64,000 bases of DNA, from assembly GCA_964367355.1 (NCBI GenBank), contig CAYIWY010000001.1, positions 35,307 through 99,306 on the forward strand, in the 5' to 3' direction. The notes under the pieces are model-generated. The model was given only the letters and a program-made list of their open reading frames with translations, was not told the origin of the DNA and did no database searches. Position numbers and translations under genes: made by a program. Source of the DNA: an uncultured Gammaproteobacteria bacterium (lineage in GTDB: Bacteria; Patescibacteriota; Microgenomatia; Woykebacterales; RBG-16-39-9b). Of the stretch, positions 992 to 56,517 are shown one piece after another; position 1 is the first letter of the stretch; every line of letters begins with the position of its first letter.

Positions 992-1132
992 AATTTACGT
1001 AAGGTTAGAAAAGAACAGAAGGAAGCGAGGGATTTTTTGGTACCTAAAACCTCAACACTATAAGACATAGTATTGAGATTCTAGAAACCACCAGAAGTGC
1101 GGTTCTCTAGCGGTTCAAGGAGGTTTGTCCCC

Positions 1133-1321
1133 GTGAAGACAGTCAATGGCGTGCGCTACCCGACCCCGAGCGCTTCGGCCCAAGCAGCATTCAGGGCTCA
1201 GGTTCGGCAATCGTCGGCGTCCACTCGGCTCCCGAATCTCGGTAGGTTCGGTCGGGTCGAGATCGTGCGCAGCGCAGAGGACATCCGGTCCCTTCGCGAC
1301 GACGGTCACCGGCACCAGTAG
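1133..1321 (+). CDS. possible small GC-rich protein (62 aa), uncertain
   Basis: Strong SD AAGGAGG lies 8 nt upstream of GTG 1133. GC3 is much higher than GC1/2, consistent with real coding in GC-rich DNA. However, random ORFs of this length are common in 65% GC sequence. Confidence 0.25.
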   Translation: MKTVNGVRYPTPSASAQAAFRAQVRQSSASTRLPNLGRFGRVEIVRSAEDIRSLRDDGHRHQ

Positions 1322-1780
1322 TTCTCACAGACACGCAGCCATGAGGGGGAGTTTGACTAGGCGAAAGCTGAAAATCAAACTCCCCCACCAGAAATAGTGG
1401 AGGTGACTTGGTACAAATTTAGCCATAACCCGAGATGGCGCAAACATAAGGGACGGCTCGGTATCAGTGCAAAATAAGCACGAAACCGTCCCCTAAATTC
1501 TAATCACTACGAACTTGGCTGGAGAGAGGTTCAAAGGGAGGTGAATATTATTTTACCCTCTTACTTTCAGCCAAATTCGTGAGGATTAGGTTCATTTCAA
1601 GAAAGGATTTCATTTTGGCCTAGTCGGCGCCCTTTGACAATTTAAAGCAATCAGGAAACCGAGCAGTCCAGCTCGTCACCCACTTTAGGTGGTAGTGAAA
1701 CACATTTTTGTGTGTAGCCAGGCAGAGAAGGACACCTTGAACTCTGCTTGAAGACAGTTTAGTAGTACGGAGGAATATCG
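1322..1780 (+). other. GC-rich, highly structured non-coding leader or candidate ncRNA upstream of the zinc-ribbon gene
   Basis: There is a perfect 12-bp inverted repeat GGGGGAGTTTGA..TCAAACTCCCCC at 1343-1384. A 7-bp stem GGGACGG..CCGTCCC sits around 1449-1496 with a nested GTGC..GCAC hairpin. An imperfect long stem GGCTGGAGAGAGG..CCTCTTACTTTCAGCC follows. No credible ORF is present. The stretch ends at the GGAGGA SD for the 1781 gene. Confidence 0.35.
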
Positions 1781-2617
1781 ATGTCACGCAAGCCCAGTAA
1801 GTCCCCGGCAAATGGAACTCCGGAAGCTGCGGATCTGTCCGCCGCCGATCCGAAGGACGGAAATGCTGACACCAGCGTCGCCGTCGCCACCCAGGACCCG
1901 CAGGCTGCGGAGGACGTCAACGCTCGCGAGTGCGAGTTCTGCGCCATGGTCATGCCAGCGGATTCCAAGGACCCGGCCTGCCCAATGTGCTTCCGGGACA
2001 ATCGGTTGTACATCATGCTCCGGTTCCTGGCGGCGAAGGGGCAGACGTACTGCAACGCCGTCCACGATGGCAAGCGCTGCGAATACGTACTGAACATGAG
2101 GTCGGACGGCAAGGACGTCTTCTGCCCCATGGACAAGGCGGATCGGGCGATCTTTGCGGCCGAGCGAAAGCTCCGCGAAGAGGCACCGACAACGGAAGCG
2201 CAGGCCAAGCTCGCTGAGGCGAAGGGCTTCTTCAACGGTGGGGACGACTGGAAAGCGCTCAAGGCGGCCAATCAGGTCTTCGATCTGCAGGCCAAACCCT
2301 TCGTCGAGGAGGGGCTTTCCAACCTGGTCGAGGCCGAACTCGGCCCGCTGGCACGTGCTGCTTACGATGAGGCTGTCAGCTTCGTCGAGCACGGCCAGTA
2401 CGTCCGCGCCAGCGAGTGCGTCGTGAGCATGAAGAACATCATGCCGCGCGAGCGCATGCTCATCGCCCATGGCGAGCGCCTGTCGAAGACCGATCAGCAG
2501 CGGCGGCAGCGGACCCACAGTCCTGACGTCGAGGACAACCTCGGCAGGATCAAGGGTTTCCAGCAGCGAGTCGCTTCTCACGCTCACGCCGGCAACGACG
2601 AGGACGGCGAAAACTAG
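1781..2617 (+). CDS. hypothetical Ala/Glu-rich protein with an N-terminal multi-Cys zinc-ribbon-like motif (CEFC..CPMC..C..C); GC-rich, likely foreign
   Basis: SD GGAGGA lies 7 nt upstream of the ATG. Cys pairs CxxC and CxxC are 12 aa apart, with three further Cys. The long antisense ORF 1784-2587 is a GC-artifact. Confidence 0.6.
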   Translation: MSRKPSKSPANGTPEAADLSAADPKDGNADTSVAVATQDPQAAEDVNARECEFCAMVMPADSKDPACPMCFRDNRLYIMLRFLAAKGQTYCNAVHDGKRCEYVLNMRSDGKDVFCPMDKADRAIFAAERKLREEAPTTEAQAKLAEAKGFFNGGDDWKALKAANQVFDLQAKPFVEEGLSNLVEAELGPLARAAYDEAVSFVEHGQYVRASECVVSMKNIMPRERMLIAHGERLSKTDQQRRQRTHSPDVEDNLGRIKGFQQRVASHAHAGNDEDGEN

Positions 2618-2752
2618 CGCACCGCAATAGCGACGCGCTCAACAACCATCCAGATTCGGATTGAAGCTGGGTGTGAAATGAAAGGTAACCTCACATGAAG
2701 TGACGTTACTTCGAACAATCTCAGCCTCGATTTATCGAGCAAATAGCTGAGA

Positions 2753-2812
2753 GGGGAGGGTTTCGAACTTGTTCATCATGAACAGGCGCGAACCCTCCCT
2801 TTCTCTTTTTTA
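2753..2812 (+). terminator. Rho-independent terminator with a nested hairpin and a T-run
   Basis: GGGGAGGGTTTCG..CGAACCCTCCC is an 11-bp stem with one bulge. It encloses an inner TGTTCATcATGAACA palindrome and is followed by TTTCTCTTTTTT. Confidence 0.7.
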
Positions 2813-2925
2813 ATCACCTTTCTTTCAGACGAAGAAAGGTTTTTTTGTTTCCAATAATAGCAAGAAACTTGACTTCGAGGCCAAATATGATATTATAGGG
2901 CAGTAGTTACCCACAAATTGGAAAA

Positions 2926-32917: not shown

Positions 32918-32992
32918 TGGAGCGGAAGACAGGATTCGAACCTGTGACTTGCTGTTTACGAAACAGCTGCTCTACCACTGAGCTACTTCCGC
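32918..32992 (-). tRNA. tRNA-Thr (anticodon CGU), CCA encoded
   Basis: Reverse complement GCGGAAGTAGCTCAGTGGTAGAGCAGCTGTTTCGTAAACAGCAAGTCACAGGTTCGAATCCTGTCTTCCGCTCCA folds as a cloverleaf with anticodon loop TTCGTAA. Confidence 0.85.
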
Positions 32993-32994
32993 GT

Positions 32995-33070
32995 TGGCGA
33001 CTACGGAGGGATTCGAACCCACGATCCTACGCTGTCAACGTAGTGCTTTAAACCACTGAGCTACGTAGCC
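32995..33070 (-). tRNA. tRNA-Val (anticodon GAC), CCA encoded
   Basis: Reverse complement GGCTACGTAGCTCAGTGG..CTACGTTGACAGCGTAG..GGTTCGAATCCC..CGTAGTCGCCA. The anticodon stem CTACG/CGTAG is perfect, with loop TTGACAG. Confidence 0.85.
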
Positions 33071-33100
33071 TTTACTCCGAAAATTCGGAGGAATCTCTTT

Positions 33101-33176
33101 TGGTGGGGCAGACAGGAGTCGAACCTATAACCTCTTGCACGCAGTGCAATTGCTCTCCCAATTGAGCTACCACCCC
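33101..33176 (-). tRNA. tRNA, probably Ala (anticodon UGC); loop parse ambiguous
   Basis: Reverse complement GGGGTGGTAGCTCAATTGGGAGAGCAATTGCACTGCGTGCAAGAGGTTATAGGTTCGACTCCTGTCTGCCCCACCA. Cloverleaf with T-loop TTCGACT. The anticodon loop ACTGCGT gives UGC but carries C33 and a G3-C70 pair, so the identity is uncertain. Confidence 0.65.
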
Positions 33177-48928: not shown

Positions 48929-48958
48929 TTGACAGAAACTATAGGACTGTAGTATATT
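48929..48958 (+). promoter_or_regulatory. AT-rich sigma70-like promoter TTGACA, 18 bp, TATATT, facing GC-rich island D
   Basis: Seen directly. The GC jump begins at about 48966. Confidence 0.5.
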
Positions 48959-49005: not shown

Positions 49006-49788
49006 ATGGTTACTGCCACAGCCGCAAAGAACGGCGCATCTGCCGAACCTGTGACATCGCGCCGCGACACTCGCGCCAGCAAGGTTTCGGCGGTCAAGAC
49101 AGAGCAATCGTCCAAGTCCAACACGGGTTGGATGCACGTCAGGATTCACTGTGTCGGGCGCACCCCCCTGCTGATGGATCCCATGACTGATGGGACCATC
49201 GAGGAGCTGGAAACTGGGGTTCGCAAGCCGATCAACAAGCAACTGACGCGTTACCAGGTCTGCGAACCCAAAGTCATGCACAATGCTGCTGGCTTGATCG
49301 CGGTCCCCATCGACAACTTCTTCGCCTGCACTGTCGAGGCCGGCCGGAGAATCCCGTTTCAGAAGATGAGCAAGATGAGTACGGCTACCAGCACGACTTT
49401 GCCGGAGTACTTCCGCTTCATCTCGGAGGATCTGGTACTACTCGACAATAAGGGTAAGCCACTGCCGGACTGGGACGGGAAGTCGAAGAACGGCAGCTGG
49501 AGCGTCGATGTGCGCCGTGGTTGTCTCAAGGATGGCACGGCTGTGCCGATCCGGCGGCCGAAGTTCGACCACTGGGAATTCGATGTCGAGTTCGAGTATG
49601 ACATGGGAGTCATCTCGGACCAGAAGCTTCTCGATCTGATCAAGATCGCCGGCACGACCATGGGGCTGTGCAGCTTCCGGCCGAACAAGAAGGGTCGCTT
49701 TGGCACCTTTGCGATGACGCGCTGGGAAGAGATCGCTCGCCGTGAACAGGATACCGAGGTTGAGATAGTCAGGTTGAAGGCCGCGTAA
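49006..49788 (+). CDS. hypothetical protein (island D gene 1), GC-rich; possible glycine-rich loop near the C-terminus
   Basis: SD AAAGGAA. 260 aa. Low-complexity N-terminus. C-terminal GTTMGLCSFRPNKKGRFGTF is loosely reminiscent of a RAMP/Cas6 G-rich loop; this is speculative. Confidence 0.55.
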   Translation: MVTATAAKNGASAEPVTSRRDTRASKVSAVKTEQSSKSNTGWMHVRIHCVGRTPLLMDPMTDGTIEELETGVRKPINKQLTRYQVCEPKVMHNAAGLIAVPIDNFFACTVEAGRRIPFQKMSKMSTATSTTLPEYFRFISEDLVLLDNKGKPLPDWDGKSKNGSWSVDVRRGCLKDGTAVPIRRPKFDHWEFDVEFEYDMGVISDQKLLDLIKIAGTTMGLCSFRPNKKGRFGTFAMTRWEEIARREQDTEVEIVRLKAA

Positions 49789-49847
49789 CAACAAAGGGTG
49801 ACGTACAGTACGTTTCGTTAGGTTGGCACAACTGCACTGTCGTCATT

Positions 49848-49899
49848 TGCACTACAGGGTGGGGAACTAGGAGTCAACTTCTTTTTCCCCACCAAAACT
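49848..49899 (+). terminator. hairpin GGGTGGGGAA..TTCCCCACC plus T-run after gene 1; its 5' arm resembles the array-unit head
   Basis: CAGGGTGGGG is shared with unit R10. Followed by AAAACTCTTTTTTGG. Confidence 0.5.
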
Positions 49900-50042
49900 C
49901 TTTTTTGGTGGTTTGGTATCGGAATAAATTTCGTTACTAGAGCATCAAAACAAATACTTGGAGAAGATCAATCCAGAGTTGGGCCAAGCATTGTGGACAT
50001 ACCTGCCCTTTCGTCTACTGCTGCCCACTCCGCTGCGTCATG

Positions 50043-51304
50043 GGGCTGGATCCGATTATCGCAAGACGATCGGATCTGCCGACACTAACTACCTCGGCGT
50101 TGATGAGTGCGTTTCACTGACGTGAACTGCTTTGCACTTTAATGCGCTCGAGTTAAGTAGAGGGCTGGGGATCCGGAGAGAAATCAAAGGATCTCTGCCA
50201 ACCTTTTGTTTTCAAGTAGCCTGGGGCGGACTTCATAACAGTGGAGTTTCCTGGGGTCACCTGCAGGGCTGGGTTCCGAGAGGAAACAATCGGAACCTGC
50301 CACCTTGTTGACGGACTAAGCTGACGTTCAGTGTCGAACCGTTCGGTTCAGCACGCTCACGTGCGTCAGGTTTTAGTGGGGTGCAGGGCTGGGGGTTTCC
50401 TTGGGAAACTAGGGAAACCTCTGCCAACCAATGTTCGGTGCGCAGTTACCTCTCGTATTGATCGCCTTCCTGCTGTTGGCTACTCTGTCGTTTGGTGACC
50501 TGCTGTAATCTGAAGGGCTGGGTCCGTTTACAGAAATGTATCGGACTTGCCAAATTTGTGGTCTAGGGTGCGGTTTGGTTAACTCCACTAGCGTGCGGAA
50601 AACTGGCCTACACCTAACTGACGTCAGGGGCTGAGGACCCGGAGAGAAATCAAAGGGTCTTTGCCAACAAACTCAATTCGTTCCCCTGCTGTGAAGATGG
50701 CTTAACTTCAGTTAAGTTCTCCTTACTTACGTGGGGTATCGTGGAGTATGGGGCTGGGGATTTGCTCTGGAGAAATCTATTCAAGTCCCTGCCAACAACT
50801 TAAGTTGAACTTAGCTGCAGCTGACTTCTGTTCGCTGGGCTATTGTTACGTGCAGGGCTGGGTCCGTTTACAGAAATGTATCGGACCTGCCAAACCAATT
50901 TTGATGAATTGATTCTGAAAACATAAATTTCAAAACCAGCTCATCAGGGTTTTGAGAGAGTTATCAAGTGCGCTAGACCACTGTTCCCTAAAGCACCCAA
51001 GGGTTCAGCCCACTTTCGTGGTCTTCGCAATGGTACTGGGCTGGGGACCCGGAGAGAAATCAAAGGGTCTCTGCCAAAACGCTTTCAACTTAGGTACTGT
51101 ACCCCGTTCTTCGGTAAACAGTCCTGTCGCATTGTTTAGGGCTGGGGAGTTGGTTAACTTTGGTTTTCTAACTCCCTGCCAACCGAATTAGATTTTCGAG
51201 GGGTAGTGTTGTGTATGGCAGCGTCATGCTCCGTCTGCTTCAGTACACCAGGTTGCCCCATAGTTCAGGACTGCCCCCGATGTTTCGAAAGAATTATCGG
51301 GGGT
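50043..51304 (+). repeat. array I of structured repeat units with the pattern CAGGGCTGGG, variable hairpin, CTGCCAAC (11 units)
   Basis: Units: 50043-50083, 50162-50202, 50266-50304, 50386-50428, 50515-50554, 50628-50668, 50751-50796, 50855-50894, 51038-51080, 51138-51182, plus a degenerate unit at 51261-51304. Stems of 5-7 bp covary (GATCC/GGATC against GACCC/GGGTC; GTCCG/CGGAC; GGATCTG/CAGATCC; GGTTTCC/GGAAACC). Loops usually contain AGAAAT. Inter-unit segments are unique and 60-184 bp long. There is no ORF. Confidence 0.85.
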
Positions 51305-51365
51305 GTCATTTTTCAATATTTACCTAAAAAATTCTGTCCCATTTTGTAACAAGGCACTTTAACAA

Positions 51366-53213
51366 GTGACAAATAGTAAAGGAGAGGGGACAACAGTGCC
51401 TTCATCGCAACATCGTGGTAGGCCTTCTTTCGAGGAGCTTACCTCCGCCTGGCCAAGGCGGCGACTTGGACCCATGTGGTCCGAACAAGAAGAAGCCTTT
51501 GAGGTCATTGCCAAACATGGCAGTTGTACCTTGGAGGTACCGACTGGTATGGGCAAAACCGCTATCGGTTACACGACGCTCAAGGCGTTGGGCAACCGTG
51601 GTGAAGGCCCACTTTTCTACATCGTGCCGACCAAAACTTTGGTTGGACAGGTAGCTGAGATGTTTCCAGACGTCACTCCGGCCTATGGTCGGAATGAGTT
51701 TGATTGTCTCTACTACGACGAGCCGTACAAAGCGGACGAAGTCCCTTGCCTGCTATTGCAGGACTGTGTCCATCGGGTCGATCAAGAGACTGGCCGGACT
51801 GCTGGTCGAGGAGCAGAACGTTGCCCCTACTACCACGCCAAGTACCAAGCCAAACGCGATCCGAGTCGGATCGTAGTCTGCTCGATGTCGTTTTACCTTT
51901 TCACCCAGCTTTTCTCCAAGGAGTTTGAGAATCCAGCTGGTTTGGTGATCGACGAAGTTCAGCAGATGCCAGATGTGGTCCGTAATGCTCTGTCTTTTGA
52001 CATCACGGACTATCAGTTGCAACGGGCGATCAACCTACTGTCAACCACAGCTGCGGATGAAGCTGCTGGTCTCGAGATCTTTCTCGATACTATGTTGCGG
52101 ATCATTCGACTCAAGCCTTCGAAGGTGCCGGTAATGCTCGAAGATGTCGAGTTGCAGGAACTGCTGTTGGTCTTGCGAGATATTGACCGCGATGGTCTGC
52201 GTCGCAAGATCGCCGAGGGTATCCGCTCGGGCGACATTGATGTCGTCAAAGAGCGAGAAGTCCTGACCAAAGTTGAGCGACTGGTCTATGACCTGTACCG
52301 TTACGTGCGAGCGTTTGAATTTTCGCTCAGCAACGAAACACAACGGCCACTCAACTACACCTACGCAGTTTGGGACAAAGAACCAGCTGAGGGCAAAAAG
52401 GTCCACAACAAGCTGACCGTCAAGTCCTACTACGTCGCGCCGGTGATCAAGAAACTGCTGTCAGCCAATCTGACAGTGAGTTTGGGAGCGACTATCGGCG
52501 ACCCGAACGTGTTTGGTTACGAGTCAGGGATCGATCCGAGGCGAACGCCGATGTTCACTTTTGACTCGAGTTTTCCGGTCGGCAACACCCGGATCTACGT
52601 TCCGTCGGACTCCTTTAGCTTGGCGGAAAAAGAGGTCAAAAATCGTGGTAAAGCCACAATGGTCCGTCGGATGGTTCGCTCGGCCAAAACCTTCAACCAA
52701 AAAGGTGAGCGCGTGTTGTGCTTGGTCGTCTCTGACACCGAGCGGCAGCGCTTTATTCGGATGGCCACTGAAGACGATGTCAACTTCATCACTTACGGTG
52801 ATGGCGTGACCGCGCGCGAAGCTGCGGACCGCTTCCGTGCCGGAGAGGGTAAAGTCCTGCTTGGGACAGACGCCCAGTACGGCCAGGGTGTTGACCTGCC
52901 AGACGGTATCTGTCGGGTGATCTTCTACCTGCGACCCGGTTATCCGCGACCAGATGATCCTCAGACCCAGTTTGAGGAAAAGCGTTTTCGCTCACAGAAG
53001 TGGGCAATCTGGCAGTGGCGACTGATCATGAAGGCGATGCAGGTGCGCGGTCGTAACATCCGTGGTCCGGAAGACAGGGGAGTGACGATTTTCTTCGACA
53101 GCCGTTTCCGGCGTTTCCTTTTCGGAGGGATGCCCAAGTGGCTCCAGCCGTCATATCGTGGAGATCTGACACTGCAAGAGTGCATTGAGGACGCGCTCAA
53201 GGTGTTGAAGTAG
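51366..53213 (+). CDS. Rad3/XPD/DinG-family SF2 helicase with an Fe-S domain (island D gene 2)
   Basis: Walker A TGMGKT. Four Cys lie between motifs I and II (CLYY, PCLLL, DCVHR, ERCPYY). Motif II is VIDEVQQM (a DEAH-like DEVQ). The C-terminal LLGTDAQYGQGVDLPDG and QVRGRNIRGPEDRGVTIFFDSR match DinG motifs V/VI. An alternative start GTG 51396 has SD AAGGAGAGGGG. Confidence 0.8.
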   Translation: MTNSKGEGTTVPSSQHRGRPSFEELTSAWPRRRLGPMWSEQEEAFEVIAKHGSCTLEVPTGMGKTAIGYTTLKALGNRGEGPLFYIVPTKTLVGQVAEMFPDVTPAYGRNEFDCLYYDEPYKADEVPCLLLQDCVHRVDQETGRTAGRGAERCPYYHAKYQAKRDPSRIVVCSMSFYLFTQLFSKEFENPAGLVIDEVQQMPDVVRNALSFDITDYQLQRAINLLSTTAADEAAGLEIFLDTMLRIIRLKPSKVPVMLEDVELQELLLVLRDIDRDGLRRKIAEGIRSGDIDVVKEREVLTKVERLVYDLYRYVRAFEFSLSNETQRPLNYTYAVWDKEPAEGKKVHNKLTVKSYYVAPVIKKLLSANLTVSLGATIGDPNVFGYESGIDPRRTPMFTFDSSFPVGNTRIYVPSDSFSLAEKEVKNRGKATMVRRMVRSAKTFNQKGERVLCLVVSDTERQRFIRMATEDDVNFITYGDGVTAREAADRFRAGEGKVLLGTDAQYGQGVDLPDGICRVIFYLRPGYPRPDDPQTQFEEKRFRSQKWAIWQWRLIMKAMQVRGRNIRGPEDRGVTIFFDSRFRRFLFGGMPKWLQPSYRGDLTLQECIEDALKVLK

Positions 53214-53287
53214 AGAGTCAACCTGTGGCCTAGTCAAGTTAACCGAGCTGTTCTGTGGTGACTTGATGTCGGCTATTCAATTGCACA

Positions 53288-53882
53288 GGGTGGGGATCTG
53301 CTCTGGAGAAATCTATCCAGATCCCTGCCATTTTCTTTTTTCAACGAGTGCAGTTAGGCAGACAATGTCATTGTCCTGTTTACCTAACTGGTGTTCGCTG
53401 CAGGGCTGCCTCGATAAAACCGAAAGGATTTATCGGGGCGCCATTCTTTTGATAGTTTAATTTTGGAAATATTTTCAAAACTAGCCTATCAAAGAAAAAC
53501 GATATGGTATTCTTTTGTCGACGCGGCGGTCTTCAGTTCGCTAGCCCATGCTGCCGTTCGGTAGAGTCGGGAACGCTAGAGAGTACTGAACCGCAGTATG
53601 GGGCTGGGAACCTGCTCTGAGTAATCATCAGGTTCCTGCCAACGTTCACTTTCGTGCGGTTCAACAGCGTAGGGACTCGCCAACTGTGGTAAAGTTCTCT
53701 ATTGTAGTGTTAACCGCGCTGGTCTAAAGGGCTGGGGATCTGCTCTGGAGAAATCTATCCAGATCCCTGCCAATTTCACAAACTGACTCAAGCAGGGCCA
53801 TGTCCACAGGAGTTAGGTGGCCTGCGCTTTTGTCTAGTTTAGGGCTGGGTCCGATTTCAGAAATGTTTTCGGACCTGCCAAC
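53288..53882 (+). repeat. array II of the same structured repeat units downstream of the helicase (5 units)
   Basis: Units: 53288-53331 (ends CTGCCAT), a degenerate unit at 53403-53444 (similar to 51261-51304), 53601-53643, 53729-53774, 53842-53882. Units 50751-50796, 53288-53331 and 53729-53774 form one family. Units 50515-50554, 50855-50894 and 53842-53882 form another. Confidence 0.85.
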
Positions 53883-54067
53883 TCAATTTCGGCGGGATTC
53901 AAGTTTTTATTAACTTGGTCCCGCTTTTTCTTTTACCAAATTTTGTTTCGAGATTGAAAATGGTATTATAATAAGAGACGATCTGCCAAGATACCGCGTT
54001 AAATGTAATTTAGATAAATTAAGAACTATTTTATGCGCGCGATATTTCGTCATCTAAAACTGCCAAA

Positions 54068-55030
54068 ATGAAATTTATTCCAAATATTATTCCCAAAAGA
54101 GATAAAAAACATTCCCGCTTTGTCGTTTTGGATATTGGTTTGGGAAGAGTCAATATTGCCATTTTTGATACCACGCCCGAAGGTCCGAAGTTTGTTGGAG
54201 TTGGTAGACGCAGCTTTGGAGCAGCCGATACGATTTTAGACGCTACCTTGGAAGCCACTGACGCTCTGGGAGCAATCGTTGACGAGCTGCCTTCAGCTGC
54301 AATCGTTGGGGTAAGTGGCGGAAAACTCGATACAATTTCCACAATCGCAAAATACACCCGCGAAAAACCAAAACAAGCAATCGATAAAAATGAAGCCTCG
54401 TCAGTCCTAGAAAAAGTTTCTGCAGAAGAAAAAGAAAATCTCAAAATATTTTTTTCAACAATAACTAGTGCAAACATCGACGGAGCAAAACTTACAAACC
54501 CAATCGGGGTTAAGGGGGAAAAAGCAGAGGTAAATTGTTTTATTGCCTTTAAACCAGAAGAAGAGCTGAAGATTTATGACCAAATTATCGATGAGCTAGA
54601 ACTGAAACCAGAAAAAATTATCCCAACTTCATTTGCTGTAACCCAAATGGTAAGTAAAGATTTGACCGGAAATACTCTGCTACTTAGAATTGGCCAAACA
54701 AAAACAGAAGCAGCTCAAGTACACAGAGGAAATTTAATTAAAGTAACAAACATTGACCTTGGGGCGGAACAGCTTGATTATTACCCATTTGCTTTGGAAG
54801 CATTGTTGGAAAAACAAAACCCCGAGGAAAGAACTAGCCTTATTTGGCTTTATGCTGACAGCGACGAGGTTAATTTAGTTGATATTGAAGAAAAACTAGC
54901 AAGTGTGGATTGGAAAAAGAAATTTGATTTTAAAGAAGAAATTAAGATAGAAAGAGCTTCAGGAGAAAATAATTTTGGTCAATCGGATATGGGTTTACTT
55001 GCCCTTTCTTTACAGGAGATTTTTAACTGA
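54068..55030 (+). CDS. actin-like ATPase, FtsA/PilM family
   Basis: The N-terminal phosphate-1-like motif VVLDIGLGRVNIAIFD fits the ASKHA fold. Confidence 0.4.
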   Translation: MKFIPNIIPKRDKKHSRFVVLDIGLGRVNIAIFDTTPEGPKFVGVGRRSFGAADTILDATLEATDALGAIVDELPSAAIVGVSGGKLDTISTIAKYTREKPKQAIDKNEASSVLEKVSAEEKENLKIFFSTITSANIDGAKLTNPIGVKGEKAEVNCFIAFKPEEELKIYDQIIDELELKPEKIIPTSFAVTQMVSKDLTGNTLLLRIGQTKTEAAQVHRGNLIKVTNIDLGAEQLDYYPFALEALLEKQNPEERTSLIWLYADSDEVNLVDIEEKLASVDWKKKFDFKEEIKIERASGENNFGQSDMGLLALSLQEIFN

Positions 55031-56517
55031 TGCGTCAACTCGAGATCGATTCACAAACCAATCTTTCACATATTCTTTCAGAACTTAAAACCACTGATGA
55101 AAATGGGCTGGAATTAAATGTTGTTCCAAATGAAACTACTGTACTGGACAATCCAATTCATAGATTAATTATTGAAAAAGCCGCTAAAGATTTTAACAAA
55201 GAAGTTGTTTTTCCAGCTTCTCCAATTGAAGACGCTCCGGAGGTGGAAAGTGACGATTTGGGTTTTGTCGAAGGTGAGGATATCGTTGCTAAAACCCCGA
55301 TAGAAGAAGTCCACAAAATGATTCAGCCGGCAGCAGTTATTTCTAAAGAAGTACTTGCCAAAAAGAAAAAGTTTACTCTACCGAAATTCCTCAAAAATAA
55401 ATTAGTCTTACTTGGTATCGGGGTATTTGTCTTAATAATTGCGTTCGGTCTTGGAATTTATTTTTTACCCTTCGCCAAAATAGAATTAGTACTAAGCAGT
55501 GAAACAAAAGACTCACAAATAACTTTGACTGGAGATACGACGCAAAAAGAAGTCGATATTAAAAATAAAGTCGTTCCCATGAAAGCAATTGAAGTTTCTA
55601 AAGAAGGCGATGATGAGCAAACAACAACCGGCAAGAAAACAGTTGGCACTGTAGCTAAAGGCAGAGTTACTATCACAAACAGAAGTGTAGAAAAAACTTT
55701 TATTGCCGGAACAATCTTAACCCCAGTTGCTACTAGTAGTGCTACCTTTAAGTTGGATAATGACGTGACTATTCCGGCTTCGCAATGGCCTCTAGGTTCG
55801 GACGGGACAATTGGTGTTAATGTTACCGCAACTGCAGCAGGAACAGCAGGAAATTTGGCTGCAAACACCTCATTCAAAGTTGGAAGTGCCTCGACCATAG
55901 AAATTTCTGCGAAAAACGACCTAGCTTTATCTGGAGGATCTTCCAAACAGGTAACGGTTGCTTCTGCTGATGACCGGGAAGTTTTAAAGAAGCAGATCGT
56001 CGATAAGCTAACAGCCGATGCCAAGAAAGATACGGAGAAAAAAACTAAGGATTCAATTGTGCCCGACGAGGGCTCGATTGTCGAAGTCGTCAAAGAGGAA
56101 TATGAGCCAAAAGATATAAATGCCGAAGCAGAAAAACTCAAAGCAACAATTTCGATAAAAGTTAAAACCTTTGTCTTTGATAGAAATGATTTAACAAAAG
56201 TCTTTGTGGAATCGTTGGAAAAATCGGCGAAAGGCTTTAGTGTTGATAAGGAAGTTTCCAAAATAACCCTGCAGCAAACTGAAAAAACTTCCGAAACAGT
56301 TGCAAAATTTATCGGTAAAATTAAAGCAGTTTTGCATCCTGAAATTAATAAAAAAGAGATAACTCGGCAAACAACCGGCAAGAGTTTGAACGACGTTGAT
56401 TCGTATTTAGACTCGTCCGGTAATATAAGCAGTTACAAAGTAACTACCTTTCCGGGATTTTTTAAGTTTATGCCGTTTAACCAAAGTAAGATTGAAGTAA
56501 GGCTGAAAAACGACTAG
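55030..56517 (+). CDS. hypothetical bitopic membrane protein with a Thr/Val-rich extracellular domain
   Basis: TM around residues 120-145 (LVLLGIGVFVLIIAFGLGIYFLPF). Translationally coupled to the upstream gene (ATGA overlap). Confidence 0.4.
   Translation: MRQLEIDSQTNLSHILSELKTTDENGLELNVVPNETTVLDNPIHRLIIEKAAKDFNKEVVFPASPIEDAPEVESDDLGFVEGEDIVAKTPIEEVHKMIQPAAVISKEVLAKKKKFTLPKFLKNKLVLLGIGVFVLIIAFGLGIYFLPFAKIELVLSSETKDSQITLTGDTTQKEVDIKNKVVPMKAIEVSKEGDDEQTTTGKKTVGTVAKGRVTITNRSVEKTFIAGTILTPVATSSATFKLDNDVTIPASQWPLGSDGTIGVNVTATAAGTAGNLAANTSFKVGSASTIEISAKNDLALSGGSSKQVTVASADDREVLKKQIVDKLTADAKKDTEKKTKDSIVPDEGSIVEVVKEEYEPKDINAEAEKLKATISIKVKTFVFDRNDLTKVFVESLEKSAKGFSVDKEVSKITLQQTEKTSETVAKFIGKIKAVLHPEINKKEITRQTTGKSLNDVDSYLDSSGNISSYKVTTFPGFFKFMPFNQSKIEVRLKND

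What the first reader, a model, noticed from the sequence alone, without database searches (positions are those of the whole stretch)
50043..53882. Tandem array of about 16 paralogous structured repeat units wrapped around a DinG-like helicase gene
About 1.3 kb upstream and 0.6 kb downstream of the helicase gene are non-coding, in a genome that is otherwise gene-dense. Both stretches are built from units of about 40-46 bp with a conserved head (t)gcaGGGCTGGG and tail CTGCCAAC. Between head and tail sits a 5-7 bp stem with a 12-18 nt loop that usually contains AGAAAT. Units recur every 100-125 bp and are separated by unique 60-90 bp segments. Unlike CRISPR repeats, the hairpin sequences differ between units but stay complementary, so structure is selected rather than sequence. 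The units fall into at least three families by shared loop. No cas1/cas2, integrase, transposase or reverse transcriptase is present in the window. This architecture does not match any named repeat class that I know.
Basis: seen in the sequence. Interest (0 to 1): 0.92.

Follow-up and report, generated by a model that had tools for sequence, protein, structure and literature searches.

The report
VIPR RNA-guide arrays around a helicase
The repeats are real. They are the guide-RNA genes of a VIPR system, a CRISPR-like RNA-guided DNA-recognition system first described in 2026, here sitting in the chromosome of a tiny Patescibacteria (CPR) bacterium with a small Cas7-like protein and an XPD/DinG-type helicase.

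Summary
Fifteen to seventeen same-strand hairpin units (GGGCTGGG–stem/loop–CTGCCAAC) lie only in a GC-rich island at 49.0–53.9 kb, and their stems covary. The interpretation needs correcting in three ways.

1. The "unique" 60–95-nt inter-unit segments are tracts of 11–18 pentanucleotide repeats. Position 3 is G/C and position 4 is a pyrimidine in 75% of 249 pentamers, against 25% expected.
2. The overlooked 260-aa ORF at 49006–49788 is a Vipr protein, a minimal Cas7-like RAMP. Its family profile matches the solved SUSP1 Vipr (E 8e-12). The AF2 model (pLDDT 89) matches Csm3/Cmr4.
3. The Vipr gene, periodic arrays and this helicase family recur together in about 58 Patescibacteria loci.

The locus therefore fits VIPR (Viral Interference Programmable Repeat; bioRxiv 2026.04.26.720920 and 720927). 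Each unit plus its upstream tract is one ~105–125-nt vrRNA: a guide tract followed by a structured 3′ tail. The helicase is the accessory (vap) gene.

This is a new member of a very recently described kind. Its local features are a relaxed xSYNN repeat, a hairpin tail, a large 17-guide array and a chromosomal CPR setting. No targets were found. Expression, processing and the helicase's role are inferred.

The parts
48929..48958 (+). Sigma-70-like promoter (TTGACA-18-TATATT, 11/12) upstream of vipr
   Evidence: Function is inferred.
49006..49788 (+). vipr gene: 260-aa minimal Cas7-like RAMP with G-loop G220-LCSFRP-NKK-G230-RFG233
   Evidence: Profile hit to PDB 36pp_D SUSP1 Vipr, E 7.8e-12. AF2 pLDDT 89, pTM 0.80. 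Foldseek gives Cmr4/Csm3/type VII Cas7 at prob 1.0. phrog_4652. 917 family representatives.
49795..49898 (+). vrRNA 0: pentamer tract plus a degenerate tail (GGGTGGGGAA...TTCCCCACCAAAAC)
   Evidence: Not scored by model R1. The 3' arm overlaps the terminator-like hairpin at 49889-49911.
49950..50083 (+). vrRNA 1 (tail 50043-50083). The 5' end is uncertain.
   Evidence: (E 0.0013)
50084..50202 (+). vrRNA 2 (tail 50162-50202; loop family GGAGAGAAATCAAA)
50203..50304 (+). vrRNA 3 (tail 50266-50304)
50305..50428 (+). vrRNA 4 (tail 50386-50428). The guide is 91% identical to an L001 guide.
50429..50554 (+). vrRNA 5 (tail 50515-50554; loop family TTTACAGAAATGTAT)
50555..50668 (+). vrRNA 6 (tail 50628-50668)
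50669..50796 (+). vrRNA 7 (tail 50751-50796; loop family CTCTGGAGAAATCTAT)
50797..50894 (+). vrRNA 8 (tail 50855-50894)
50895..50960 (+). AT-rich insert (TTGATG-16-ATAAAT; TTTCAAAACCAGCTCATCA), a candidate internal promoter or operator
   Evidence: (D14). Read by eye; function is inferred.
50961..51078 (+). vrRNA 9 (tail 51038-51078)
51079..51183 (+). vrRNA 10 (tail 51139-51183)
51184..51314 (+). vrRNA 11 with a terminator-type tail (CAGGA CTGCC-CCCGAT...ATCGGGGG-TGTCATTTTT). It ends array 1.
   Evidence: register, fold -25 kcal/mol. The same kind of tail precedes the helicase in L001.
51344..51379 (+). Candidate helicase promoter (TTGTAACAAGGCAC..., motif shared with L001 and L038)
   Evidence: Weak evidence, read by eye.
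51396..53213 (+). vap-type accessory gene: XPD/Rad3/DinG-like SF2 Fe-S helicase. The ORF opens at 51366. The likely start is GTG 51396, behind the RBS AGGAGAGG.
   Evidence: Pfam DEAD, DEAD_2, Helicase_C_2. PADLOC typeIV_DinG 3e-44. PDB XPD 4e-21. Invariant Walker A/B and arginine-finger residues plus three invariant Cys (C114, C134, C153) and one near-invariant Cys (C128).
53214..53332 (+). vrRNA 12 (tail 53287-53332)
53333..53445 (+). vrRNA 13 with a terminator-type tail (GGGCTGCC-TCGATAAA...TTTATCGGGG-CGCCATTCTTTT)
53448..53493 (.). AT-rich perfect-centre palindrome (TTTGATAGTTTAATTTTGGAAAT/ATTTTCAAAACTAGCCTATCAAA), 96% conserved in L001. Candidate operator or internal promoter.
   Evidence: (I2)
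53500..53643 (+). vrRNA 14 (tail 53601-53643). The 5' end is uncertain.
53644..53774 (+). vrRNA 15 (tail 53729-53774). The guide is 86% identical to an L001 guide.
53775..53882 (+). vrRNA 16 (tail 53842-53882). The tail is identical in L001.
53892..53934 (+). Intrinsic terminator (GCGGGA...TCCCGC plus T-run) closing array 2. Conserved in L001.
   Evidence: Read by eye; its loop is too long for the scanner.

Best explanation
The island at about 48.9-53.9 kb is a chromosomal VIPR (Viral Interference Programmable Repeat) system of a Saccharimonadia/Patescibacteria bacterium. It holds three components:
- vipr, encoding a ~20-29 kDa minimal Cas7-like RAMP;
- an accessory XPD/DinG-like helicase gene (a 'vap');
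- about 17 vrRNA genes in two + strand arrays, 12 between vipr and the helicase and 5 after it.

Each vrRNA is about 100-130 nt. It is a tract of 11-18 pentanucleotide repeats followed by a conserved 3' tail. The repeat consensus is x-S-Y-N-N, where S-Y corresponds to G2-Y3 of the canonical GGY and the first G is relaxed. The tail consists of two fixed pentamers (YAGGG CTGGG), a covarying hairpin and CTGCCAAC.

Proposed mechanism, by homology with the characterised SUSP1 system:
1. The arrays are transcribed from the vipr promoter, the helicase promoter and perhaps internal promoters, then cut into single vrRNAs.
2. One Vipr protomer binds each pentamer. It sequesters S-Y and presents the two following bases.
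3. The filament reads double-stranded DNA through a gapped code (two paired bases, one skipped) and forms an R-loop/triplex that silences the target.
4. The helicase is recruited to the bound site and enhances interference.

What is shown here: the protein family and fold, the repeat periodicity, the tail structure and covariation, and the conserved vipr-array-helicase linkage. What is inferred: transcription, processing, the DNA target rule in this clade, the helicase's role and an anti-phage function.
For: Protein:
- A family profile (57 sequences) hits one PDB sequence only, 'SUSP1 Vipr protein' 36pp_D, E 7.8e-12. It aligns the RRM strand, the thumb R-P and the G-loop.
- The AF2 model has pLDDT 89 and pTM 0.80. 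Its best PDB folds are the Cas7-type RAMPs Cmr4, Csm3 and type VII Cas7, at probability 1.0 and E about 1e-6.
- All 57 family members match phage family phrog_4652.

RNA:
- In the register anchored on the hairpin head, position 3 is G/C in 92% of pentamers and position 4 is T in 76% (pyrimidine in 91%). The other positions are near random, over 11 pentamers x 15 units.
- 187 of 249 pentamers carry S-Y, against 25% expected (binomial p 1.5e-61).
- The tails all fold alike and covary strongly.
- No Rfam family matches.

Linkage:
- Clustering ORFs from the fetched loci (L001-L062 plus the window) places a Vipr homologue in 58 loci and the helicase family in 61; the two mostly occur together, usually in the order vipr, array, helicase on one strand.
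- In 40 of 40 loci with an intergenic region of at least 250 nt, period-5 power there exceeds both the helicase CDS and neighbouring periods (Wilcoxon p 1.8e-12).
- Some loci show canonical NNGGT repeats.
- Close relatives L004 and L038 carry a single vrRNA of the same tail type between vipr and the helicase.

Literature:
- VIPR is defined as vipr + vap + ~100-nt vrRNAs made of 9-16 YNNGG repeats plus a structured tail.
- Variant repeats (YNNNG and others), helicase or nuclease vap genes in types III-V, single-vrRNA loci and chromosomal loci are all reported.
- The cryo-EM paper assigns G1 contacts to H17 and D177, G2 contacts to R138 and W178, and Y3 contacts to R179. In the window protein these positions are D58, S223, R184, F224 and R225. 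Only the G1 contacts are lost, which matches the relaxed first position.
- Across 40 loci, G1 frequency is higher when the D177 equivalent is D (Mann-Whitney p 0.0015).

Evolution: the flanking FtsA-like protein is 98% identical between the window and L001, while the helicase is 68% and Vipr 53% identical. This is the pattern expected of a conflict system.
Against: - There are no expression data, so vrRNA ends, processing and strand are inferred from promoter and terminator positions only.
- Similarity to the characterised SUSP1 Vipr is remote. It is detectable at profile level only.
- No target was found. The best matches in 0.94 Mb of local sequence are at chance level, apart from self hits. 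The three exact 9-dinucleotide hits in viral contigs do not extend beyond the searched pattern (2-4 of 12 further bases match).
- The 1-nt-skip rule and the number of guide bases per pentamer are untested for this relaxed repeat.
- The preprint's text does not say which VIPR type carries a helicase or whether Patescibacteria loci were in its set. The type assignment (probably type IV, by elimination) is unverified.
- The protein/RNA covariation test ignores phylogenetic non-independence and uses automatic motif phasing.
Confidence: 0.85

Rival explanations
1. It is a VIPR-derived system that has been domesticated for a host function, such as regulating the bacterium's own genes or chromosome maintenance, rather than for defence or inter-element conflict.
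For: - It sits among core genes, not in a prophage: IF-2, PNPase, RNase J, FtsK and AlaRS on one side; FtsA-like, YceG and RpoB on the other.
- It lies next to alaS in at least one related Saccharimonadales genome as well (L004).
- Several guides are conserved at 83-91% between strains.
- The vipr-helicase pair occurs in many Patescibacteria lineages.
Against: - No self-target under 0-3-nt skip rules in the 64-kb window or in 0.9 Mb of related loci.
- The cassette diverges far faster than its flanks: 53-68% against 98% identity.
- Only 5 of 15 guides have a counterpart in the sister strain.
- The island's GC content is foreign to the host.
- Characterised and predicted VIPR targets are phages and other mobile elements.
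Confidence: 0.1
2. It is a degenerate or minimal type IV-like CRISPR-Cas system. A single Cas7 plus a CasDinG would use an unusual array whose hairpin repeats have diverged and whose spacers are long.
For: - The helicase matches the PADLOC model typeIV_DinG (CAS-IV-A associated) at E 3e-44 over its full length.
- The 260-aa protein has a Cas7-type fold.
- The repeat-like units carry a hairpin followed by an 8-nt conserved tail, as class 1 repeats do.
Against: - The repeats are not near-identical.
- The 'spacers' are 60-95 nt of 5-nt periodic sequence. They evolve by point substitution between strains rather than by turnover.
- No Cas5, Cas6, Cas8 or Csf1 was detected. The three ORFs tested (alaS, vipr, helicase) gave only helicase-type Cas hits, all from the helicase, in PADLOC, and the ORFs tested in Pfam or NCBIfam gave none beyond a sub-threshold Cas3g hit for the helicase.
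- The bona fide Csf4 models match only weakly (E 1e-4 to 5e-6).
- The closest solved helicases are XPD, not CasDinG.
- The protein's only sequence-level PDB relative is Vipr.
Confidence: 0.03
3. The units are protein-independent elements, such as REP/MITE-like repeats, terminator/attenuator hairpins or attC-like recombination sites, that merely accumulated around the helicase gene.
For: - The units are hairpins with conserved flanks and variable stems, as in REPs and attC sites.
- Two of the tails double as intrinsic terminators.
Against: - All copies share one strand and one locus, with none elsewhere in 64 kb.
- No integrase or transposase was found among the ORFs checked.
- Spacing is too short for integron cassettes.
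- The intervening sequence is pentamer-periodic.
- The same architecture, with different tail sequences, accompanies vipr and the helicase in dozens of distant genomes.
Confidence: 0.02

Closest known systems
VIPR systems (Viral Interference Programmable Repeat; Vipr + vrRNA + vap), bioRxiv 10.64898/2026.04.26.720920 and 10.64898/2026.04.26.720927
   Same: - A small single-RRM RAMP with G-loop and thumb, homologous at profile level to SUSP1 Vipr.
- A compact two-gene locus flanked by long intergenic regions.
- ~100-nt RNAs made of tandem pentanucleotide repeats with conserved and variable positions, followed by a conserved structured 3' tail.
- RNAs placed both upstream and downstream of the genes.
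- An enzyme-type accessory gene; helicases are reported for types III-V.
   Different: - The repeat consensus is x-S-Y-N-N (equivalent to 'YNNNS'), not GGY-NN. The two residues that read G1 in SUSP1 are replaced.
- The tail is a simple covarying hairpin with an apical GAAA-type mini-loop, not the pseudoknot described for the SUSP1 clade.
- There are 17 head-to-tail guides, against 4 in SUSP1.
- The locus is chromosomal and lies among housekeeping genes of a Patescibacteria bacterium, not in a phage.
- The type could not be assigned from the text available.
Type IV-A CRISPR-Cas (Csf complex with CasDinG/Csf4)
   Same: Both combine a Cas7-family RNA-binding backbone with a DinG/XPD-superfamily helicase and have no nuclease. 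The likely outcome is DNA binding or interference rather than cleavage (mechanistic analogy from my own knowledge of type IV-A). The helicase hits a PADLOC typeIV_DinG model.
   Different: - No CRISPR array, Cas5, Cas6 or Csf1.
- The guide is periodic and (by homology) read with gaps.
- The helicase is closer to XPD than to characterised Csf4 models.
Type III CRISPR Cas7 subunits (Csm3/Cmr4)
   Same: Best structural matches of the predicted fold.
   Different: About 10-13% sequence identity. There is no Cas10 or other Csm/Cmr subunits, and no CRISPR array.
TIGR-Tas tandem interspaced guide RNA arrays (recalled from memory, not tested)
   Same: Non-CRISPR arrays of short structured guide RNAs next to a small RNA-binding effector, often in phages or parasitic bacteria.
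   Different: Tas proteins have a Nop domain, not a RAMP fold. TIGR units are ~36 nt with two spacers and have no pentamer periodicity.

Membership tests
VIPR system | Vipr protein: a minimal RAMP (single RRM core, thumb, glycine-rich loop) homologous to characterised Vipr | tested here: met
   Profile against PDB gives 36pp_D SUSP1 Vipr as the only hit, E 7.8e-12. The AF2 model (pLDDT 89) matches Cas7-type RAMPs. The invariant G-loop is G220..R225-P226..G230..G233.
VIPR system | vrRNA guide region: 9-16 tandem pentanucleotide repeats with conserved GGY (or a related consensus) alternating with variable bases | tested here: met
   11-18 pentamers per unit. S-Y is present at fixed positions in 187 of 249 pentamers, against 25% expected. 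The consensus is the relaxed 'YNNNG-like' form that the preprint lists as an alternative.
VIPR system | A conserved, structured 3' tail capping each repeat tract | tested here: met
   Common fold in 31 of 31 units. Covariation is 309 paired cells against 232 +/- 5.5 in shuffles. The covariance model gives 15 hits in the window. The tail is a hairpin here, not the SUSP1-type pseudoknot.
VIPR system | Compact locus: vipr plus one accessory (vap) gene with DNA-related function, flanked by long intergenic regions | tested here: met
   The island has only two ORFs, vipr and the XPD/DinG-like helicase. Among the fetched loci a Vipr homologue occurs in 58 and the helicase family in 61, mostly together.
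VIPR system | vrRNAs are expressed as ~100-nt RNAs and co-purify with Vipr | not testable with these tools
   Only promoter and terminator positions and strand consistency are available.
VIPR system | Gapped (1-nt skip) recognition of dsDNA targets, with natural targets in phages or other mobile elements | tested here: inconclusive
   No local target. The exact-match scans of viral contigs returned only chance-level hits. An approximate search of large databases was not possible.
VIPR system | Assignment to one of types I-VII by Vipr phylogeny, vap gene and array architecture | not testable with these tools
   The text says types III-V have nuclease or helicase vaps and that III and V are the nuclease types, so type IV is likely by elimination. 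Trees and tables are not held.
CRISPR-Cas type IV | CRISPR array: near-identical direct repeats separated by unrelated spacers of uniform length | tested here: not met
   Repeat hairpins differ between units. The 'spacers' are 60-95 nt, periodic, and homologous between strains at 83-91%.
CRISPR-Cas type IV | Multi-subunit Csf effector (Csf1/Cas8-like, Csf2/Cas7, Csf3/Cas5, usually Cas6/Csf5) | tested here: not met
   There is one RAMP gene only. The island has no other ORFs, and no Cas5, Cas6, Cas8 or Csf models were hit.
CRISPR-Cas type IV | CasDinG (Csf4) helicase | tested here: inconclusive
   Strong hit to PADLOC PDLC01439 'typeIV_DinG, CAS-IV-A associated' (3e-44), but weak hits to the Csf4 models (1e-4, 5e-6). 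The nearest solved structures are XPD.
REP/MITE-like dispersed repeats | Copies scattered in many intergenic regions, in both orientations | tested here: not met
   15 of 15 model hits lie in one 3.9-kb stretch on one strand, with none in the other 60 kb. Whole genomes were not available.
Integron cassette array (attC sites) | An IntI integrase and attC sites separated by gene cassettes | tested here: not met
   No integrase among the neighbouring ORFs. The 60-95-nt intervals hold no ORFs.

The most novel reading that the evidence does not exclude
The vipr-array-XPD-like-helicase module is a Patescibacteria-wide, chromosomally maintained branch of VIPR. It would serve as the main RNA-guided defence of a radiation that largely lacks CRISPR-Cas. 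It would use a modified code in which the first G of GGY is no longer read: the G1-contact residues H17 and D177 are replaced, and the RNA position is free to drift. Guide sets would expand to about 17 per locus by duplication and recombination of whole vrRNAs. If the published VIPR survey did not cover this clade, it would be a distinct helicase-dependent subtype with its own tail structure.
Probability: 0.3. Interest if true: 0.7.

Novelty: new member of a known kind. Interest (0 to 1): 0.55.

Why it matters
VIPR is a newly reported mode of RNA-guided DNA recognition, proposed to predate CRISPR, in which a gapped code is read from pentanucleotide repeats. This locus matters for five reasons.

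1. A tool-less reading of raw sequence independently picked up such a system.
2. It is an unusually large natural guide set of 17 vrRNAs. A sister strain allows guide evolution to be read position by position.
3. It documents a relaxed repeat (x-S-Y-N-N) whose missing base matches loss of the two protein residues that read that base in the solved structure. This is a testable protein-RNA co-variation.
4. It ties the system to an XPD/DinG-type helicase across dozens of Patescibacteria genomes, organisms that mostly lack CRISPR-Cas (from my own knowledge of the literature).
5. It offers small, compact parts (a 260-aa protein and ~110-nt RNAs) for engineering.

It does not overturn anything known. 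It extends a very young field.

Tried and rejected
- Rfam at gathering threshold over the whole window, and at E-value threshold over the island. Only three tRNAs elsewhere and sub-threshold miRNA-like hits on an AT-rich palindrome were found. No hammerhead or other ribozyme lies between the units.
- tRNA or tRNA-like explanation for the GCCA tails. Rejected, because ARAGORN finds nothing there.
- The word-indexed protein search found only 3 relatives of the 260-aa protein, which wrongly suggested an orphan. The exhaustive HMMER search found 917 family representatives.
- Pfam, NCBIfam and PADLOC have no model for the 260-aa protein.
- Whole-region Fourier analysis does not show period 5, because the register resets at each tail. 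A strict sliding-window threshold also missed most loci. Anchoring on the tails and paired comparisons did show it.
- The MAFFT alignment of the units is poor in the variable stem. Covariation was therefore counted by indexing pairs from the conserved helix base.
- Target searches:
  - A gapped-code scan with 0-3 skip bases and 2 or 3 guide bases per pentamer over 0.94 Mb of held sequence gave only self hits.
  - Two exact scans of viral contigs with 9-dinucleotide patterns gave 3 hits that do not extend. Further scans were not run because exact matching is ill-suited to this search.
- CRISPR type IV, REP/MITE, integron attC and type III toxin-antitoxin RNA arrays were considered and rejected on defining features (see membership tests). 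TIGR-Tas was considered from memory only and not tested.
- One wasted call and one frame error (89).

Full report
**What is there**

The stretch lies in a 4.9-kb island of 50-55% GC inside a ~38% GC chromosome. Housekeeping genes flank the island. Upstream are IF-2, PNPase, UDG, RNase J, FtsK, a RodZ-like protein and AlaRS. Downstream are an FtsA-like protein, YceG and RpoB. A related contig is labelled Candidatus Saccharimonadales (L004), so the host is a Patescibacteria (CPR) bacterium.

The island has only two convincing ORFs, both on the + strand:
- a 260-aa gene at 49006-49788, preceded by a strong sigma-70-like promoter at 48929-48958;
- a helicase gene whose ORF opens at 51366, with a probable start at GTG 51396 behind an AGGAGAGG ribosome-binding site.

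The 1.6 kb between the two genes and the 0.85 kb after the helicase are non-coding.

**Checking the observation**

The head/tail pattern occurs 10 times against 0 in shuffles, all on the + strand and all inside the island. A covariance model built from the units finds 15 copies in the window, all between 50043 and 53882 on the + strand, and none in the other 60 kb. Two more variant copies, at 49857 and 51266, are recognisable from their register and fold.

All 31 units from the window and a sister contig fold identically (mean z -4.5). The fold is a 3-bp GGC/GCC base, a bulged U, a 7-13-bp stem whose lower pairs come from the conserved GGG/CYC, a small apical hairpin (often around GAAA) and an unpaired AAC.

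I indexed pairs from the helix base. 95% of cells are canonical pairs, with 4-6 pair types at the variable positions. Re-dealing the 3' partners gives 232 +/- 5.5 paired cells against 309 observed. The three loop families are also recovered.

I laid out the 'unique' inter-unit segments in 5-nt steps backwards from the head, which is itself two pentamers (YAGGG CTGGG). This shows a strict register. Position 3 is G or C in 92% of pentamers, and position 4 is T in 76% (a pyrimidine in 91%). Positions 1, 2 and 5 are near random. Over all 17 tracts, 187 of 249 pentamers carry S-Y at these positions, against 25% expected from composition (p about 1e-61). The tracts run from the previous tail to the next head and contain 11-18 pentamers.

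The second missed element is the 260-aa gene:
- It has no Pfam, NCBIfam or PADLOC match.
- The word-indexed search found only three relatives.
- The exhaustive search found 917 family representatives.
- All sampled members match the uncharacterised phage family phrog_4652.
- A profile of 57 members hits exactly one solved protein, the 'SUSP1 Vipr protein' 36pp_D, at E 7.8e-12.
- An AlphaFold model built on that alignment is confident (pLDDT 89, pTM 0.80). Its best structural matches are the Cas7-type RAMPs Cmr4, Csm3 and type VII Cas7 (probability 1.0, E about 1e-6, about 10-13% identity).

**Identification**

Two 2026 preprints describe VIPR systems. A VIPR system consists of three things:
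- a small ancestral RAMP, Vipr;
- one accessory gene, vap;
- ~100-nt vrRNAs made of 9-16 YNNGG repeats, in which GGY is held by the protein and NN is the programmable code, followed by a conserved structured tail.

The complex reads double-stranded DNA with one base skipped per dinucleotide, forms an R-loop triplex and silences transcription.

The preprints also report several variations:
- variant repeat consensuses (NNNGG, YNNNG, NNNNG);
- arrays of several architectures;
- single-vrRNA loci;
- chromosomal as well as viral loci;
- nuclease or helicase vap genes in types III-V.

Every structural criterion I could test is met here (see membership tests). Because types III and V are called the only nuclease types, the helicase type is probably type IV. 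The text available to me does not say so, and it does not name host phyla.

**Generality**

The helicase is an XPD/Rad3/DinG-superfamily Fe-S helicase. The evidence is:
- Pfam DEAD, DEAD_2 and Helicase_C_2 domains;
- closest solved structures XPD, E 4e-21;
- invariant Walker A/B and arginine-finger residues, three invariant cysteines and one near-invariant cysteine;
- a full-length hit to a PADLOC 'typeIV_DinG' model, but only weak hits to the Csf4 models.

It has hundreds of ~50%-identical relatives, nearly all from Patescibacteria.

I fetched 59 such loci from species-representative genomes and clustered all their ORFs. The only other conserved family is the Vipr homologue. It is present in 58 of the clustered loci, usually upstream on the same strand.

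In all 40 loci with a vipr-helicase intergenic region of at least 250 nt (about 1.1 kb on average), period-5 spectral power is higher there than in the helicase CDS and higher than at neighbouring periods (Wilcoxon p 1.8e-12).

Individual loci show several variations:
- canonical NNGGT repeats (L005, L008);
- TNNNG repeats (L011);
- their own tail hairpins, for example GGTCAG-stem-GAAA-stem-CTGACAATT in L023 and L002;
- terminator-plus-promoter units in L037 and L043.

The window's particular tail type is confined to close relatives. L004 and L038 have a single vrRNA of that type between vipr and the helicase.

**Local peculiarities**

*Relaxed repeat.* The repeat here is x-S-Y-N-N, meaning the first G of GGY is not conserved. 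In the cryo-EM paper, G1 is read by H17 and D177, G2 by R138 and W178, and Y3 by R179. In the alignments these positions correspond to D58, S223, R184, F224 and R225 of the window protein. Only the two G1 contacts are replaced.

Across 40 loci, the frequency of G at the G1 position is higher when the D177 equivalent is aspartate (0.28 against about 0.17; one-sided Mann-Whitney p 0.0015). This test does not correct for shared ancestry and relies on automatic phasing, so it is suggestive only.

*Comparison with the sister strain.* Contig L001 comes from a near-identical host:

| Protein | Identity, window vs L001 |
|---|---|
| FtsA-like (flanking) | 98% |
| Helicase | 68% |
| Vipr | 53% |

Five of 15 guide segments have blastn matches in L001; four are guide-tract counterparts at 83-91% identity and the fifth match covers only the AT-rich palindrome. 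Within these, substitutions fall mostly on pentamer position 2:

| Pentamer position | Substituted |
|---|---|
| 1 | 10% |
| 2 | 26% |
| 3 | 8% |
| 4 | 4% |
| 5 | 12% |

Position 2 against the rest gives Fisher p 3e-4. This fits a model in which position 2 is read by neither the protein nor the target, positions 3-4 are read by the protein, and positions 5 and 1 are read by the target. The cassette behaves like a fast-evolving conflict module lodged at a fixed chromosomal site.

**Transcription (inferred)**

All elements face the same way. Array 1 ends in a vrRNA whose tail doubles as an intrinsic terminator (51266-51314). A motif shared with L001 and L038 upstream of the helicase follows it. 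Array 2 ends in a conserved terminator (53892-53934). Two AT-rich inserts (50895-50960, and the palindrome at 53448-53493) interrupt the arrays and may be internal promoters or operators.

No ribozyme separates the vrRNAs. Processing therefore presumably relies on a host or system nuclease, which is unknown.

**Targets**

None were found. Gapped-code scans of the window and of 0.9 Mb of related loci return only the guides themselves. Exact 9-dinucleotide scans of viral contigs return one or two hits each, about what chance predicts, and their flanks match at 2-4 of 12 positions. The available search tools need exact matches, so this negative result is weak.

**Verdict**

It is not an unknown class. 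It is a chromosomal, helicase-associated VIPR locus of a Patescibacteria bacterium with an unusually large guide array and a relaxed repeat code.

I rate it a new member of a very recently described kind and of moderate-to-good interest. Its value lies in the natural guide set, the strain comparison, the apparent protein-RNA co-variation, and the breadth of the vipr-helicase module across a radiation that mostly lacks CRISPR.

Noticed in passing
window 1000-2830: A second GC-rich island (53-55% GC against ~38%). It has its own TTGACA/TATAAT-like promoter near 964-992, a long leader, a 278-aa ORF of unknown function (1781-2617) and a terminator-like hairpin near 2750-2800. It carries no VIPR-type units.
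   Followed up: partly
window 53448-53493 and 50923-50946; L001 2096-2143: An AT-rich, nearly perfect palindrome inside array 2. Its half-site (TTTCAAAAC[C/T]AGC..ATCA) recurs inside array 1. It is 96% conserved in the sister strain while the surrounding guides diverge. It may be an operator or internal promoter of the arrays.
   Followed up: partly
L001 4971-5099 and 6869-6997: A 129-nt perfect inverted repeat, consisting of one whole vrRNA plus its flank, brackets the segment that holds vipr and six vrRNAs. That segment is inverted relative to the window's arrangement. One arm is at the contig end, so this is either a real recombination between duplicated vrRNAs or an assembly artefact.
   Followed up: partly
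window 49857-49911: The first, degenerate vrRNA tail (GGTGGGGAA...TTCCCCACC) and a terminator-like hairpin (CCACCAAAA...TTTTGGTGG plus T-run) share the CCACC arm. The two structures are therefore mutually exclusive. This could be an attenuator between vipr and array 1.
   Followed up: no
window 49006-53213 versus L001: The VIPR genes diverge far more than the flanking genes between two near-identical hosts: Vipr 53%, helicase 68% and FtsA-like 98% amino-acid identity. Only 5 of 15 guides are shared.
   Followed up: yes
40 Patescibacteria loci (L005-L062) and the window: The residue equivalent to SUSP1 D177, which reads G1, co-varies with how often G occupies the first repeat position of the local vrRNAs (p 0.0015, uncorrected for phylogeny).
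   Followed up: partly
L037 4550-5700 and 7770-9220; L043 3860-5900 and 8000-8430: In some distant relatives each vrRNA unit ends in a terminator-type hairpin with a T-run, immediately followed by TTGACA/TTGTAA. The units look like independent promoter-to-terminator mini-genes rather than a processed polycistron.
   Followed up: no
window 32918-33176: A cluster of three tRNA genes on the - strand (Thr-CGT, Val-GAC, Ala-TGC).
   Followed up: no
window 55030-56517: A 495-aa ORF after the FtsA-like gene with only a marginal Baseplate_J hit (E 1e-4, just above cutoff). It is conserved next to the FtsA-like gene in L001, so the hit is probably spurious rather than a phage remnant.
   Followed up: no
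window 51366-51398: The helicase ORF opens at GTG 51366, but the ribosome-binding site AGGAGAGG (51380-51387) and the L001 orthologue point to a start at GTG 51396 (605 aa).
   Followed up: yes
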